Virus record (IMG/VR): IMGVR_UViG_3300047313_000015
Location: 33,340-97,339 of that record
DNA from: a virus
Taxonomy: Duplodnaviria; Caudoviricetes
DNA length: 64,000 bases
Reading direction: 5' to 3' (one strand)
Position numbers and translations under genes: made by a program. The notes under the pieces were generated by a model. That model saw only the letters and a program-made list of their open reading frames with translations, did not search any database and was not told the origin of the DNA. Positions 17,225 to 48,558 of this stretch are shown here, one piece after another (the stretch's first letter is position 1; the number at the start of each line of letters is the position of its first letter).

Positions 17225-17246
17225 TGTCGGACCACTCTGGTAGAGT
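17225..17246 (+). promoter_or_regulatory. PafBC-type (RecA-NDp) promoter
   Basis: TGTCGG-N10-TAGAGT matches TGTCRG-N10-TANNNT. Confidence 0.6.
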
Positions 17247-17315
17247 GTGCCTAGATAAGCACACCGGCTAAGGCAGCAAGCATGATGCCGCTGCCAGGAA
17301 GAGAAGAGGAATGTC

Positions 17316-18407
17316 ATGTCAAAGGAATTTCTGGGCGAGGTCAAGGTCTGCCGCAGCGCCTACGCTGTGGACCGTTCGGAGCCGCTGTTCATTTACCTCG
17401 GCGTGTGCACCGTGCATAACCGGCCGGTTCGGGTGGACATGAACCGGAACTTCGGTTCATTCACACAGATCCCGTGCCCGGAAGGCGACACGGTGAAGGG
17501 TGAGCGGCTGAACGCGGTCACCACTACGCTGGAATGCGACGGATCATGCCGTTCCGCATTTCACTCCGAGTGCGTCTGCGGCTGCGGCGGAATGAATCAC
17601 GGGCTGTCATTCCTTAACAAGCTGATCGCGGAGTCTGGTGGCACTCATTTCGTTACCGGTGCGGTGCTGGATGAGCAGCACGTCACCGATTCCGCGCTGG
17701 CCACGTGGCGCGTTCGCCGCCAGAAGGTGGAAGAGAAGCGCGTGCAGCGGCAGGCCGCAAAGGCTGACCATGCGCGTGTCGCCTTTGACGAGTGGGCGGA
17801 AGTGCACAGCGATGTCGTCCGTGCCCTGGACGGCTGGCATGAGCACCGTACCGACACGGCGTGGCAGGACGCTACCGGCGTTAAGTGGGGTGCCCACATT
17901 CTGGTGGACTTCGCTATCCAGACTCACGGCGGCTGGAACGGCAAGCCCAAGCCGCTGACTGAGAAGCAGATTGCCCTGGCATTCAAGCTGCTCGGTGAAG
18001 GTGCGGAGCGCGTGTCCAAGAATGCTGCACGGGCCGCCGACGCCAAGCCCGCACCGGAAGGCCGCGTCACGATTGACGGCACGATTGTCAAGGTCACGGC
18101 CCGTGAGGGATTCAGCTACGACCAGATTCAGCATCAGATGATCGTTTCGAGTGACGGATTCGCTGTGCTGATGACTCTGCCTACGGCGATAGCGCAGGAG
18201 GCCTACCGGCTGAGCACGTCCAGCACTCTGCGGGATTCTTACGACGGTCCCGATTACGAGGCCATCGGCGCGCGGCTGACCGGCGTTCTGAAGGGTGCTT
18301 TCATCCGGGTTACCGTGAATGTCGAGCGATCCCGCAAGGATGAGTCATTCGGCTTCGGGAAGCGTCCCAGCGTCGTTAGCTGGGAACTGCCTGGCAAGCA
18401 GAACTAG
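17316..18407 (+). CDS. Hypothetical protein with CxCxCGGxNHG zinc motif and OB-like C-terminus
   Basis: ECDGSC...CVCGCGGMNHG; strong RBS. Confidence 0.75.
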   Translation: MSKEFLGEVKVCRSAYAVDRSEPLFIYLGVCTVHNRPVRVDMNRNFGSFTQIPCPEGDTVKGERLNAVTTTLECDGSCRSAFHSECVCGCGGMNHGLSFLNKLIAESGGTHFVTGAVLDEQHVTDSALATWRVRRQKVEEKRVQRQAAKADHARVAFDEWAEVHSDVVRALDGWHEHRTDTAWQDATGVKWGAHILVDFAIQTHGGWNGKPKPLTEKQIALAFKLLGEGAERVSKNAARAADAKPAPEGRVTIDGTIVKVTAREGFSYDQIQHQMIVSSDGFAVLMTLPTAIAQEAYRLSTSSTLRDSYDGPDYEAIGARLTGVLKGAFIRVTVNVERSRKDESFGFGKRPSVVSWELPGKQN

Positions 18408-18459
18408 GCGGTAAGGTGGCCGGGTGCAATGCCCGGCCACCTCGATCAGAGGGGAAGCA

Positions 18460-18930
18460 ATGAGAGACATCGATCACTACCGGCAATGGAACCGGGCATT
18501 CGATAGTGCCCGCGCCGCTGCGGCGGAAACTCTCGCCAATGACAGTGCGCTGGTCCTGCGATCAATACACGCCGGGCTCCAGAGTCATCTGTCGGAGAAC
18601 CCGAACGACGCTCGCTCGCTGGGCTTGTGCGCCGGTATCACTGACGTGCTGGATCAGAGAGTGCAGCAATTCGAGCCGGAAGGGCCACAGGAGCCGGAGC
18701 GTGTTTACTACGTTCAGGTGAAAGCCAGCCCGCGAAGTCACACGCTCACTTACAAGGGCCCTTTTTTCATCCCGGTGGGGAGTACGGTAACGCTCCCGCC
18801 ACTTCCGTGGATGAACCACGAATGGACCGCCGAGGTTATCGGCACCGATAAGGGTGAGGGGTACAACGGCGAGGGGTACAACGGCGATATCAAGTCCGTT
18901 CTTTCCGCTACCTTCAAGCAGCGGAACTAG
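18460..18930 (+). CDS. Hypothetical protein
   Basis: RBS GAGGGG before ATG 18460. Confidence 0.6.
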   Translation: MRDIDHYRQWNRAFDSARAAAAETLANDSALVLRSIHAGLQSHLSENPNDARSLGLCAGITDVLDQRVQQFEPEGPQEPERVYYVQVKASPRSHTLTYKGPFFIPVGSTVTLPPLPWMNHEWTAEVIGTDKGEGYNGEGYNGDIKSVLSATFKQRN

Positions 18931-19319
18931 TTCGTAAGGCACGTTACAGATACCACGTCCGTGTCCGGGGCTTGGGGATAGTGCCAGCACGCTACGCGAC
19001 TGGCACGGTTACCGGTACGTAGTTGCCGGTAACTGATTCACCTGGGAGGTTTCGCAATGCCAGGCCATTAGGTGCCTGGTAAACAGCGGCCGGTAATGTG
19101 GGAGTGCCTGTTCTCGATAATTCAGCAAACGGAAGGAATGTGGAAAATGACACACCCAATCGTCACAATTGACAGTTTCAACCGTACGTGGGTCGGCGGC
19201 CGATTGCTGACTGCGGATGAGGCCCGGCGTTACTGGCTGGACCGGGACGCCGACCGCGCGAAACTACGCTAGGAGAGAGTGTCAGGGGGTGCCGGTACAC
19301 TGGTGCTGGCACCCTTCAC

Positions 19320-19398
19320 GGGACTGGGCGGTATCGACGGATAAGGAAAACCGCACGCGGACCTTATCCGGACCTGGGTTCGATTCCCAGCAGTTCCA
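19320..19398 (+). ncRNA. Miniature tmRNA-like RNA (tRNA-like domain only)
   Basis: GGGACTG/CAGTTCC-A acceptor with G3-U70, unpaired D loop GGCGGTATCGAC, helix GGATAAGG/CCTTATCC, GGAC linker, T arm CTGGG-TTCGATT-CCCAG. Confidence 0.85.
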
Positions 19399-19412
19399 CG
19401 TAATTGCATAAA

Positions 19413-19677
19413 GTGTGTGCCCTGTTGAGGGTGTGCGTGCGGGCTAGCGAAAGCTAGCGGGGCCAGAAGCAAGCGCAAGACGCCTGGTCGCGCCGGATTT
19501 ATCCGGCCCATGGTGGGGAGAAGCCCGAAAGGGCCTAATCGCATGTAAAGGCTGCATGCAGATCCTTTGGCAACGTCAATAAGACCATAGGTACGACGGG
19601 TTGGCCGGATTTGTGTGGCGGTAAGGTCTACTGCCCTGTCCCACGTGCCGCACGTACAACCCCATCGGGGCACACGT
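19413..19677 (+). ncRNA. Unknown multi-branched structured RNA (~265 nt)
   Basis: 28-bp closing helix (3 mismatches), GAAA-capped hairpins GCTAGC-GAAA-GCTAGC and GCCC-GAAA-GGGC. Confidence 0.65.
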
Positions 19678-47004: not shown

Positions 47005-47049
47005 CCTGACATGACACGCTATCGAGAAACACCTGTAGGGGGAAATAAA

Positions 47050-47640
47050 ATGATCTTTCGATGGTCGAGAGAGACCGCCAAGCTGATCATCGCCAGCATC
47101 CTGTGCGTGATCAGTGTGGCCGTAATCACGGTGAGCCTGGCAACCGCAGGCCGGATCCCGCACCCGAGCCAGCCGTCCGTGGCACAGGACTGGTGCGCCC
47201 AGCCGCATCGTCATGGCACCACCTGCATCGAGGTCCGGAGCAGCGCCATCGTGGCCGGGTTCTGGAACAGTAACCGCAGCCATAAGCTGCGCGCCGTGAA
47301 GGTCCGTGGCACCTTCGAGCATAACCCGCTGTACCAGCTCCATATCGAGGGCCGCCCTGGCAAATGCGTCGGCAGCAACCCGGCCAACCGCACCGCGATG
47401 GTGCAGCCCTGTGGTCATGGCGGCGTCGGCACGGTGTTCGCGCTGACTCCTGGTTTCCACCTGACGAGCCGGTACTGGACGCTGTTCGAGGGCAACCTGG
47501 ACGGCGCTCATAACGTTCTGCTGACTGTGTCCCGTCGCGGCAACCTGCTGACCTACAAGGTGGACGGCACCACCACGTTCAGCCAGTTCTGGGCACCGTG
47601 CAGCCATGCCGTGTGCGCAGTCACCGGAGGATCGGCTTGA
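47050..47640 (+). CDS. Secreted ricin-B-like protein 5
   Basis: TM/signal; GKCVG...MVQPC..GG.GTVF. Confidence 0.6.
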   Translation: MIFRWSRETAKLIIASILCVISVAVITVSLATAGRIPHPSQPSVAQDWCAQPHRHGTTCIEVRSSAIVAGFWNSNRSHKLRAVKVRGTFEHNPLYQLHIEGRPGKCVGSNPANRTAMVQPCGHGGVGTVFALTPGFHLTSRYWTLFEGNLDGAHNVLLTVSRRGNLLTYKVDGTTTFSQFWAPCSHAVCAVTGGSA

Positions 47641-47644
47641 CCAC

Positions 47645-47666
47645 TGTCAGACCCACATGCTAGACT
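47645..47666 (+). promoter_or_regulatory. PafBC-type promoter
   Basis: TGTCAG-N10-TAGACT. Confidence 0.65.
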
Positions 47667-48078
47667 GCCGGTAACGAGACAGAGGAGATCAAGATGATCG
47701 AGCTTGCAGAGGCCAGGGCCAGCCACGACGGTATCACGCTGCGCACGCTGCTGGCCGCACTCACCGCACATGGTGGTGACCTGGACACGCCACTGCTGAT
47801 CGAGGCTGACGGTGAGCCCGTCTACATCCAGGCGTATCTGACGGAGGGGTCGTGAACACACCACCACGCACCACCCCGGAGCTGCTCTCCGCAGCCTGGG
47901 CCATGGCTGGCCCGAACTTTGAGAACATGAACGCAATCCAGGTCCGGAAGATCGAGAAGCTGGTGAACGAAGCCTACGAACGCGGTAAGCTGGACGGCCA
48001 GCACGAAAAGCGCCCCTACGAATGCGACCCCGGATGCGGCTGCATTTGAATTCGTGTACATTTGCCGGAAGGAAGATC

Positions 48079-48531
48079 ATGAGTTTCATCGAGGTAGAGG
48101 GAGACCTGTTTGATCTTGGCCTTCCAGCCATCGGCCATGGTGTCAACTGCCGTGGGTGCATGGGTGCAGGCATCGCGAAGGTTTTCCGGGACAAGTACCC
48201 GTACATGTATCACGCCTACGTCAACCTGTGCGAGCAGGGTGAGATCCGGGCCGGTGGCATCATGGCCTGGAAGGAGCCGGACGTGATGATCTACAACCTG
48301 GCTTCCCAGATCGAGCTGGGCGCTGACGCTACACTCTGGGCGGTGGCCTCGTCCGTCAGGCTGGCGCTGATGAACTGCACGGCCAACAGAATCCCCGCCC
48401 TCGGGCTGCCACGTATCGGCTGCGGCATCGGTGGCCTGAACTGGCCGGACGTCAAGTCGATCATGCAGAACGCTGCGGCGCAGGTGCCGTCCGTGGATCT
48501 TATCGCGGTTACGCTGCCCGGCCAGGCTTGA
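48079..48531 (+). CDS. Macro-domain protein (ADP-ribose hydrolase, DarG/TARG1-like)
   Basis: EGDLF, HGVNC.GCMGAGIA..F, IYNLASQ, LPRIGCGIGGLNW. Confidence 0.9.
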   Translation: MSFIEVEGDLFDLGLPAIGHGVNCRGCMGAGIAKVFRDKYPYMYHAYVNLCEQGEIRAGGIMAWKEPDVMIYNLASQIELGADATLWAVASSVRLALMNCTANRIPALGLPRIGCGIGGLNWPDVKSIMQNAAAQVPSVDLIAVTLPGQA

Positions 48532-48536
48532 CAGAC

Positions 48537-48558
48537 TGTCGGACCCCTGTGCTAGACT
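48537..48558 (+). promoter_or_regulatory. PafBC-type promoter upstream of rIIA
   Basis: TGTCGG-N10-TAGACT. Confidence 0.7.

What the first reader, a model, noticed from the sequence alone, without database searches (positions are those of the whole stretch)
17225..48558. Three promoters match the host PafBC DNA-damage consensus, linking to the phage Pup
Seen: TGTCGG-N10-TAGAGT (17225-17246), TGTCAG-N10-TAGACT (47645-47666), TGTCGG-N10-TAGACT (48537-48558), each intergenic and upstream of an RBS (363-aa early gene, macro-domain cluster, rIIA/rIIB). Known: actinobacterial PafBC activates TGTCGG-N10-TANNNT promoters on sensing single-stranded nucleic acid, and is encoded in the Pup-proteasome locus. 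Inference: the phage uses the host LexA-independent damage activator as a middle-gene switch and might tune it through its own Pup.
Basis: partly seen in the sequence, partly recalled or inferred. Interest (0 to 1): 0.72.

Follow-up and report, generated by a model that had tools for sequence, protein, structure and literature searches.

The report
Phage promoters mimicking host recA promoter
A 97-kb soil actinobacterial phage has three (perhaps four) promoters carrying the same upstream box and spacing that the host DNA-damage activator PafBC reads at recA and uvrB, so the phage may switch on rIIA/rIIB, a macro-domain gene and an OB-fold gene when single-stranded DNA appears; this is untested at the bench.

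Summary
Observation confirmed. TGTCRG-N10-TANNNT occurs 4 times in the window (0.65 expected; 0 of 100 shuffles reach 4) and nowhere else in the 97,339-bp phage contig. All four are intergenic and co-oriented with the next gene. Three share TGTCRGACC-N4-TGN-TAGAST.

The box is under selection. TGTC[AG][GT]ACC-N7-TAnnCT sits 53-64 nt upstream of rIIA in five divergent relatives (42-57% rIIA identity). A 69-kb relative has three such sites, all intergenic in its rII cluster.

The ACC(C) extension is the form found in recA promoters of a Micromonosporaceae sample (20 of 25) and several other actinobacterial lineages. In Micromonospora it also precedes uvrB and a DnaQ/GIY-YIG nuclease gene.

Three cultured large actinophages show the motif only at background. 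The phage has a separate class of canonical TTGACA-N16/17 promoters without the box, and no WYL protein.

Caveats: the host is unknown, there is no binding or expression data, and all three sites have an extended -10. Two also have a -35 at 18-19 nt, so basal PafBC-independent activity is likely. The closest relative lacks the box.

The proposed Pup link has no support. PafBC reading about 0.55; partly supported.

The parts
17225..17246 (+). Site 1: TGTCGGACC-N4-TGG-TAGAGT. It has no -35 (best match 4 mismatches) and overlaps the inverted repeat GTGGTCCG-N6-CGGACCAC (17214-17235). It lies 69 nt upstream of the ATG of the 363-aa gene.
   Evidence: rank 2 of about 195,000 positions with a PWM built from host recA promoters
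17316..18407 (+). 363-aa gene downstream of site 1. It has no Pfam family and matches PHROG 4265 (function unknown). A Cys-rich block is conserved. In the AlphaFold model the C-terminal part (about residues 249-357) gives weak OB-fold matches (SSB, RPA, PriB, PolC OB domain; Foldseek E 1e-3 to 1e-2).
19280..19301 (+). Site 4 (candidate, weaker): TGTCAGGGG-N7-TACACT. It has no -35 and no TGN. Its -10 ends 18 nt before the 5' end of the mini-tmRNA.
   Evidence: PWM rank 6
19320..19401 (+). Mini-tmRNA (tRNA-like domain only), the gene downstream of site 4.
   Evidence: Rfam RF00023, 56.1 bits against a gathering score of 47
47637..47666 (+). Site 2: -35 TTGACC (47637-47642), 18-nt spacer containing TGTCAGACC (47645-47653), then TGC-TAGACT. 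It lies 27 nt upstream of the ATG at 47694.
   Evidence: PWM rank 4
47694..48531 (+). Genes downstream of site 2: 53-aa and 65-aa ORFs (no family found) and a 150-aa macro-domain protein (48079-48531).
   Evidence: Pfam PF01661 E 9e-9; PHROG 335
48528..48558 (+). Site 3: -35 TTGACA (48528-48533), 19-nt spacer containing TGTCGGACC (48537-48545), then TGC-TAGACT. It lies 81 nt upstream of the rIIA GTG.
   Evidence: PWM rank 1, 20.2 bits
48640..51646 (+). rIIA (48640-50700) and rIIB (50714-51646), followed by a GC-rich hairpin at about 51650-51685.
46306..46708 (+). For contrast: two canonical promoters at the head of the rightward arm, TTGACA-N17-TACAGT (46306-46334) and TTGACC-N16-TGC-TACACT (46681-46708). 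Neither has a TGTC box.
36323..36821 (-). For contrast: canonical promoters of the tRNA array, TTGACA-N17-TGG-TAAGCT and TTGACA-N16-TGG-TATAGT. Neither has a TGTC box.
27534..27725 (-). Phage Pup gene (63 aa, ends GGQ). It is not part of the promoter class and has no motif on its strand. It is listed only because the finding invokes it.
   Evidence: Pfam PF05639, 71 bits

Best explanation
These are real phage promoters of a distinct class. Each has a sigma-A type -10 (TGN-TAGAST) preceded at exactly 10 nt by a TGTCRKACC box at about -26. This is the same architecture, and the same sequence variant, as the PafBC-dependent (RecA-NDp) promoters of recA, uvrB and other repair genes in Actinomycetes.

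Proposed mechanism (inferred, not shown):
- The host heterodimer PafBC is activated by single-stranded DNA produced by phage replication, recombination, host DNA breakdown or defence nucleases.
- PafBC binds the box and bridges it to region 4 of SigA ('sigma adaptation').
- This boosts transcription of the 363-aa OB-fold-like gene, the macro-domain cluster, rIIA/rIIB and perhaps the mini-tmRNA.

The -10 is extended, and two sites also keep a -35 at a long 18-19 nt spacing. I therefore expect a basal SigA activity that PafBC raises, rather than an all-or-none switch. The phage Pup has no demonstrated role in this.
For: 1. Exact fit to the published 22-nt consensus and -26 position. There are 4 hits against 0.65 expected. 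All are intergenic and co-oriented with the next gene, and there are none on the other strand or elsewhere in the 97 kb.

2. Conservation in relatives. The box sits at the same distance from a -10, 53-64 nt upstream of rIIA, in five relatives with only 42-57% rIIA identity (L081, L082, L083, L084, L108). L095 carries a variant, TGACAGACC, that keeps both G:C pairs. The 69-kb relative G001 has 3 forward and 0 reverse sites, all intergenic, before rIIA, rIIB and the next gene.

3. Match to host repair-gene promoters.
- TGTCnn-N10-TAnnnT lies upstream of recA in 28 of 29 sampled class-level genomes and 25 of 27 Micromonosporaceae.
- The ACC extension is present in 20 of those 25 family promoters and in several other lineages.
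- In Micromonospora G002 the same variant precedes recA, uvrB and a DnaQ/GIY-YIG nuclease gene. In Gordonia it precedes an ExoIII-family gene and in Actinoplanes holB.
- In 7 of the 13 fetched sites a long ORF starts 6-7 nt after the -10, i.e. the transcript is probably leaderless.

4. A PWM built only from 43 host recA promoters ranks the phage sites 1, 2, 4 and 6 among about 195,000 positions.

5. A distinct class. The phage's other strong promoters are TTGACA-N16/17-TGGTAnAcT without the box. Seven of 13 box-bearing sites in the phage and its relatives have no usable -35, as PafBC promoters do.

6. The motif is not generic to actinophages. In Rhodococcus phage Dorin and Streptomyces phages Riptide and Coruscant it is at background.

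7. The host very probably has the system. The phage carries Pup, and a tandem WYL gene pair lies about 16 kb from pup in Micromonospora G002.
Against: - There is no binding, TSS or expression data, and the host is unknown.
- All three main sites have a TGN extended -10, which host recA promoters lack. Sites 2 and 3 have good -35 hexamers, so SigA alone may suffice.
- The closest relative (L093, 71% rIIA identity) has TTGACC-N18-TGG-TAGACT with no GTC, and another group of relatives (L094, L097, L098, L103) lacks the box. The box is therefore dispensable for rIIA expression.
- By PWM alone the signal is modest. The shuffled-genome maximum reaches 20.2 bits in 3 of 100 shuffles, and hits of at least 12.9 bits number 4 against 1.05 expected.
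- In Micromonospora, ACC is a minority variant genome-wide (about 10% of motif hits). Its near-invariance in the phage lineage could instead reflect common descent of the promoters or another factor.
- Most phage proteins are ORFans, so a phage-encoded box-binding protein cannot be excluded.
Confidence: 0.55

Rival explanations
1. The box is the site of a phage-encoded factor: an activator, or a repressor sitting in the spacer of SigA promoters. It would define a phage-controlled temporal class, and the resemblance to the PafBC motif would be coincidental or convergent.
For: The phage lineage conserves more than the PafBC core (ACTGTCRKACCC). The box lies between the -35 and -10 in sites 2 and 3 and in L082-L084, where repressor operators often sit. 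Site 1 overlaps an 8-bp inverted repeat. Most phage genes have no assigned function.
Against: No WYL, HTH or sigma-like domain was found in the phage: a six-frame WYL search of the whole contig was negative, and so was Pfam on 40 proteins. The extended box equals a host recA/uvrB promoter variant, which a phage-specific site would not need. The apparent dyads around the box have variable spacing (1-4 nt) and follow from TTGACA and TGTC being partial reverse complements, so there is no fixed dimer operator. The box keeps a fixed 10-nt distance to the -10, as an RNAP-contacting activator requires.
Confidence: 0.22
2. These are ordinary SigA extended -10 promoters. The TGTC box is a spacer sequence inherited by duplication or descent of promoter cassettes and has no regulatory role.
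For: All three sites have TGN-TAnnnT, and two have TTGAC[AC] at 18-19 nt. L093 drives rIIA from the same -35 and -10 without the box. The PWM significance is modest.
Against: Spacer bases are not expected to stay fixed across relatives whose rIIA proteins are only 42-57% identical while the flanks diverge completely. The box also occurs at sites with no -35: site 1, site 4, L108, and G001 sites 2 and 3. The phage's other strong promoters have different spacers and 16-17 nt spacing.
Confidence: 0.18
3. The matches are chance and have no promoter function.
For: The motif is short and degenerate, and a single 22-nt pattern can occur by chance in 64 kb.
Against: 4 matches against 0.65 expected. 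All are intergenic and co-oriented, with an RBS and start codon downstream. Three share 15 specified bases. The motif is conserved in relatives.
Confidence: 0.03

Closest known systems
PafBC-dependent (RecA-NDp) promoters of Actinobacteria, activated by 'sigma adaptation' (Gamulin 2004; Mueller et al., Sci Adv 2021, PMC8635444)
   Same: A 22-nt bipartite motif, tGTCgg-N10-tAnnnT, with the box at about -26 and a SigA -10. Some sites have no -35. The extended variant TGTCRKACCC is the one seen at recA and uvrB in sampled genomes.
   Different: The promoters lie in a phage genome in front of rIIA/rIIB, a macro-domain cluster, an OB-fold-like gene and a mini-tmRNA, not repair genes. They have an extended -10 TGN, and two sites also have a -35 hexamer. 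The genes have leaders and Shine-Dalgarno sequences, whereas many of the host examples are leaderless. PafBC dependence is untested.
T4 middle promoters (MotA box at -30 plus a sigma-70 -10, read through AsiA/MotA 'sigma appropriation'), which also drive rIIA/rIIB
   Same: The -35 contact is replaced by an activator bound just upstream of an ordinary -10. This marks a temporal class of phage genes that includes the rII genes.
   Different: In T4 the phage supplies both factors. Here no phage factor is found, and the box matches a host activator's site. There is no sequence relationship.
LexA/SOS-box-controlled genes of phages and prophages
   Same: The phage couples its genes to the host DNA-damage signal through a host regulator's site.
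   Different: That is repression relieved by RecA-stimulated cleavage. Here it would be activation by an ssDNA-sensing WYL activator, and the phage shows no sign of lysogeny genes in the regions examined.
Mycobacterial or actinobacterial SigA extended -10 promoters
   Same: TGN-TAnnnT, and sometimes TTGACA upstream. The phage's own canonical promoters are of this type.
   Different: These three carry a conserved box at a fixed distance in the spacer, and either a long (18-19 nt) -35 spacing or no -35 at all.

Membership tests
PafBC-dependent (RecA-NDp) promoter | 22-nt motif tGTCgg-N10-tAnnnT with an exact 10-nt gap | tested here: met
   4 exact matches to TGTCRG-N10-TANNNT; consensus taken from PMC8635444
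PafBC-dependent (RecA-NDp) promoter | Strictly conserved GTC triplet (the two G contacts of the PafB HTH) at about -26 | tested here: met
   Present in all 4 phage sites and in 8 of 9 related-phage sites; L095 has GAC, which keeps both G:C pairs
PafBC-dependent (RecA-NDp) promoter | No recognisable -35 element | tested here: inconclusive
   Met at sites 1 and 4. Not met at site 2 (TTGACC, 18 nt) and site 3 (TTGACA, 19 nt). Relatives are likewise mixed.
PafBC-dependent (RecA-NDp) promoter | Sequence resembles bona fide regulon promoters (recA and others) beyond the minimal consensus | tested here: met
   The TGTC[GA][GTC]ACC form occurs at recA in 20 of 25 Micromonosporaceae and in other lineages. 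It also precedes uvrB, a DnaQ/GIY-YIG nuclease gene, an ExoIII-like gene and holB. The recA-derived PWM ranks the phage sites 1, 2, 4 and 6, though shuffles show only modest significance.
PafBC-dependent (RecA-NDp) promoter | Host encodes PafB/PafC | not testable with these tools
   The host is unknown (metagenomic IMG/VR contig). It is inferred from the phage Pup and from the tandem WYL gene pair near pup in Micromonospora.
PafBC-dependent (RecA-NDp) promoter | PafBC occupancy (ChIP or pull-down with RNAP-SigA and ssDNA) and pafBC-dependent induction by DNA damage | not testable with these tools
   Needs experiments
SigA canonical / extended -10 promoter | TANNNT -10 with TGN, and/or TTGACA at 16-18 nt | tested here: met
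   TGN-TAGAST at sites 1-3. The -35 lies at 18 nt (site 2) and 19 nt (site 3), and is absent at site 1. This is compatible with basal PafBC-independent activity.
Phage-encoded WYL / PafB-like activator system | A WYL-domain protein encoded by the phage | tested here: not met
   A six-frame search of the whole 97-kb contig with PF13280 gave no match at E<=1. The contig is estimated 87% complete.

The most novel reading that the evidence does not exclude
A lineage of large soil actinophages uses the host's ssDNA-sensing activator PafBC, through sigma adaptation, as a ready-made 'MotA'. Copies of the host recA-type -26 box in front of rIIA/rIIB, a macro-domain cluster, an OB-fold gene and a mini-tmRNA would fire these (probably counter-defence) genes when replication or defence nucleases generate ssDNA. 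The box variant (GG, AG or GT before ACC) may track the recA promoter of each phage's host.
Probability: 0.45. Interest if true: 0.72.

Novelty: new variant of a known kind. Interest (0 to 1): 0.56.

Why it matters
[quoted passage not shown] Its mode of action, sigma adaptation, was described only for host repair genes. I found no paper in the searchable library linking PafBC to phage promoters.

If these promoters are PafBC-dependent, they would show three things:
- A virulent-type phage can time genes by listening to a host ssDNA sensor instead of encoding its own activator.
- Infection itself activates PafBC.
- rII, macro-domain and tmRNA-like functions belong to a damage-triggered programme.

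It would also give compact natural promoters for damage-inducible expression in Actinomycetes, and a way to predict hosts from promoter variants. If they are not PafBC-dependent, the conserved box still marks a new regulatory class in this phage group.

Tried and rejected
- **Close relatives by DNA or single protein.** Megablast against 50,697 phage records found nothing. Single-protein scans of IMG/VR with rIIA and the 363-aa protein found nothing.
- **Fetching contigs of the best protein relatives.** The targets were P0002-P0008 for rIIA, P0130 (74%, on a 99-kb contig) and P0131 for the 363-aa gene. A profile scan for the 363-aa protein in IMG/VR gave one 30%-identical locus without the motif.
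- **Phage-encoded WYL or PafB-like factor.** None was found. Pfam on 40 phage proteins gave no transcription factor.
- **Dimeric operator idea.** Rejected. The dyads around the box have variable spacing and arise because TGTC is the reverse complement of the GACA in TTGACA.
- **Other TGTCRGACC copies.** The copies at 1143, 35871 and 56658 (minus strand) have no -10 at the required spacing, and their number is what chance predicts.
- **Family-only recA PWM.** It overfits the family's spacer and does not rank the phage sites first.
- **Host identification.** Pup homologues point weakly to Micromonosporaceae and Frankiales, but this is not decisive. Phage GC (58%) is well below that of those genomes.
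- **SiwR.** SiwR is another -26 activator, but it reads a GGA triplet within a palindrome (PMC10693628), so it does not match.

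
Full report
**What the window is.** The window is bases 33340-97339 of a single 97,339-bp IMG/VR virus contig. The contig has 58% GC and CheckV estimates it as 87% complete. It encodes:
- 29 tRNAs
- a mini-tmRNA (Rfam RF00023, 19320-19401)
- rIIA and rIIB, a macro-domain protein and an ArdC-like anti-restriction protein
- a 63-aa Pup (PF05639, 71 bits, 27534-27725 minus strand)

The best tblastn matches of rIIA among named phages are Rhodococcus and Streptomyces phages at about 28-31% identity. 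This is an uncultured large actinophage whose host is unknown.

**The observation.** TGTCRG-N10-TANNNT matches four times in the window, all on the + strand, at 17225, 19280, 47645 and 48537. Dinucleotide shuffles give 0.65 on average, and none of 100 reaches four. The remaining 33 kb of the contig has no match.

That longer pattern has exactly three perfect matches, and its near-matches are no more frequent than chance.

Each site lies between ORFs, ahead of a Shine-Dalgarno sequence and a start codon on the same strand. Its -10 ends 18 nt before the mini-tmRNA, which is the right place for that RNA's promoter.

**A separate promoter class.** A scan of intergenic TANNNT elements shows that the phage's other strong promoters follow GG-TTGACA-N16/17-TGG-TAnAcT-GG. 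They sit at the head of the rightward arm (46306, 46681), in front of the tRNA array (36323 and 36794, minus strand) and at genome position 838. None has TGTC at -26.

The box-bearing sites differ from these. Site 1 and the tmRNA site have no -35. Sites 2 and 3 have TTGACC and TTGACA, but at 18 and 19 nt, with the box inside the spacer.

**Conservation in relatives.** rIIA homologues at 40-71% identity exist only in metagenomes. From profile scans of IMG/VR and JGI metagenomes I examined the 300 nt upstream of rIIA in 14 related loci.
- Five loci (L081, L082=L005, L083, L084, L108; 42-57% rIIA identity) carry TGTC[AG][GT]ACC-N7-TAnnCT 53-64 nt before the start codon. The chance expectation is about 0.02 per locus (my estimate).
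- L095 has TGACAGACC at the same place.
- In the 69-kb relative G001, the loose pattern TGTC-N12-TANNNT has 3 forward and 0 reverse matches. All are intergenic, lying before rIIA, between rIIA and rIIB, and after rIIB.
- Against this, the closest relative (L093, 71%) has TTGACC-N18-TGG-TAGACT with no GTC. A GC-rich group (L094, L097, L098, L103) has an unrelated upstream region.

So the box is conserved in part of the lineage but is not indispensable for rIIA expression.

**Is the box the PafBC box?** The published in vivo consensus is tGTCgg(N10)tA(N3)T. The 5' part sits at -23 to -28, GTC is the only strictly conserved triplet, and such promoters lack a -35 (PMC8635444).

To see what real promoters of this class look like, I fetched recA loci from 86 actinobacterial genomes and parsed the upstream regions.
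- TGTCnn-N10-TAnnnT is present upstream of recA in 28 of 29 genomes of an even class-level sample.
- It is present in 25 of 27 genomes of the family of G002. G002 is Micromonospora sp. CA-259024, reached through its Pup locus L161.
- In that family, 20 of the 25 promoters read TGTC[GA][GTC]ACC. This is the same extension, and the same kind of variation at positions 5-6, as in the phage lineage.
- The ACC form also occurs at recA in other lineages (L262, L265, L267, L268, L275, L286, L299).
- Four rows come from genomes flagged as unpublished: L269 (G007), L277 (G073), L284 (G086) and L294 (G079). I quote no sequence from them, and the counts and conclusion do not change materially without them (25 of 26 in the class sample).

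Genome-wide, the 22-nt pattern is 2.5-4 times more frequent than its reversed control in Micromonospora, Actinoplanes and Gordonia. The ACC form makes up about a tenth of the hits.

I fetched 13 ACC-form sites. In seven of them a long ORF starts 6-7 nt after the -10, which indicates a leaderless transcript. The products include UvrB, a DnaQ-type exonuclease fused to GIY-YIG, DNA polymerase III delta-prime and an ExoIII-family nuclease, alongside some unrelated or probably chance cases. In Micromonospora G002 the ACC form therefore marks recA, uvrB and a Cho-like nuclease gene, which are core damage-response genes.

**PWM test.** A position weight matrix built only from the 43 class- and phylum-level recA promoters, scanned over both strands of the whole phage contig, ranks the sites as follows:

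| Rank | Site | Score (bits) |
|---|---|---|
| 1 | 48537 | 20.2 |
| 2 | 17225 | 16.7 |
| 3 | 16001 (inside the ArdC gene) | 13.2 |
| 4 | 47645 | 12.9 |
| 6 | 19280 | 10.0 |

Shuffles temper this. The maximum of a shuffled genome averages 14.1 bits (sd 2.4) and reaches 20.2 in 3 of 100. Hits of at least 12.9 bits number 4 against 1.05 expected. The PWM result alone is therefore modest. Its weight comes from combination with position, orientation and conservation.

**Controls.**
- Three cultured large actinophages with rIIA (Rhodococcus phage Dorin, Streptomyces phages Riptide and Coruscant) have the motif at background: 1, 3 and 3 hits against 1, 2 and 5 for the reversed control. None is near rIIA.
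- The phage has no WYL-domain protein in six-frame search, and Pfam finds no transcription factor among 40 proteins.
- SiwR, the other known -26 activator, reads a GGA triplet in a palindrome, not this box.

**Mechanism proposed.**

*Shown by sequence:* four promoter-like elements with a host-type -26 box and a SigA -10, forming a class separate from the canonical phage promoters and conserved in relatives.

*Established knowledge (PMC8635444, PMC11804915):* PafBC is constitutively present, is activated by ssDNA, and inserts between promoter DNA and SigA region 4 at such promoters.

*Inferred:*
- During infection, ssDNA from replication, recombination or nuclease attack activates PafBC. PafBC then raises transcription from these sites.
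- The -10 is extended and two sites keep a -35 at long spacing, so I expect basal activity with PafBC-dependent boost rather than strict dependence.

*The cargo:*
- The cargo is rIIA/rIIB, a macro domain, a mini-tmRNA, and a 363-aa protein whose modelled C-terminal domain gives weak OB-fold matches (mean pLDDT 76; Foldseek E 1e-3 to 1e-2).
- This set looks like counter-defence or ssDNA-handling functions, which would suit a damage-triggered programme, but that is speculation.

**The Pup link.**
- Pup supports only the inference that the host has a pupylation system. In Micromonospora G002 a tandem WYL pair lies about 16 kb from pup, consistent with the known pafBC location.
- The Pup gene lies on the minus strand next to the tRNA array and has no box.
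- Relative G001 has the promoter class but no Pup in its 69 kb, although it is only 77% complete.
- There is no evidence that Pup tunes PafBC.

**Novelty.** Full-text searches for PafBC together with bacteriophage or prophage returned only work on WYL regulators of defence systems and host damage responses. None concerned phage promoters read by PafBC. This would be a known promoter type in a new setting with hybrid features, and it remains a prediction.

**Limits.**
Among them is a 99-kb contig carrying a 74%-identical copy of the 363-aa gene. Conservation of sites 1 and 2 therefore remains untested.
- The gene calls used for 'intergenic' come from my own crude ORF scorer, supported by the ORF lists.

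Noticed in passing
window 19280-19401: The mini-tmRNA (tRNA-like domain only; Rfam RF00023, 56 bits) has its own TGTCAG-N10-TACACT element. The -10 ends 18 nt before the RNA's 5' end and there is no -35.
   Followed up: partly
window 48582-48624: The 81-nt rIIA leader contains a 9-bp hairpin (GTACCAG...CTGGTAC, 48582-48605) followed by a perfect 16-nt palindrome, GGTTAGCTAGCTAACC (about 48609-48624), just before the RBS. It may be a translational or RNA-stability element.
   Followed up: no
window 17214-17235: An 8-bp inverted repeat, GTGGTCCG-N6-CGGACCAC, overlaps the box of site 1. Sites 2 and 3 have no equivalent with the same arms.
   Followed up: partly
window 17316-18407: The 363-aa protein has an invariant Cys-rich block (CDG.C...C.CGCGG.NH) that is modelled with low confidence, a long helical middle region and a C-terminal domain with weak OB-fold matches. 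Some distant homologues carry DUF6011 (PF19474). Function unknown.
   Followed up: partly
genome 838; window 36323-36351(-), 36794-36821(-), 46306-46334, 46681-46708: A family of near-identical strong canonical promoters, GG-TTGACA-N16/17-TGG-TAnAcT-GG, probably the phage's early and tRNA-array promoters.
   Followed up: partly
window 36462-36535 (-): ARAGORN calls a tRNA with anticodon TTA, a reader of the UAA stop codon, within the 29-tRNA array.
   Followed up: no
window 35880-35920 (-): A tRNA-like T-arm and 3' end (GGTTCGAGCCCCGG...) that ARAGORN and Rfam did not call lies immediately upstream of a stray TTGTCAGACC copy.
   Followed up: no
window 16001-16022: TGTCCGGTG-N7-TAGGCT inside the ArdC-like gene scores third with the recA-promoter PWM. 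It could be an internal promoter or a chance match.
   Followed up: no
L331-L335, L338, L341 (Micromonospora, Actinoplanes, Gordonia genomes): At host sites of the form TGTCRGACC-N7-TAnnnT, long ORFs (uvrB, a DnaQ/GIY-YIG nuclease gene, holB, an ExoIII-like gene and others) begin exactly 6-7 nt after the -10, which indicates leaderless mRNAs. The phage genes instead have leaders of roughly 20 to 75 nt, taking the transcription start as 6-8 nt after the -10, each with an RBS.
   Followed up: partly
L111 2991; L079 20917: More distant rIIA-bearing contigs (about 28-30% rIIA identity) also carry single sites of the form TGTC[GA][GT]AC-N8-TAnnnT. The promoter class may extend beyond the close relatives.
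   Followed up: no
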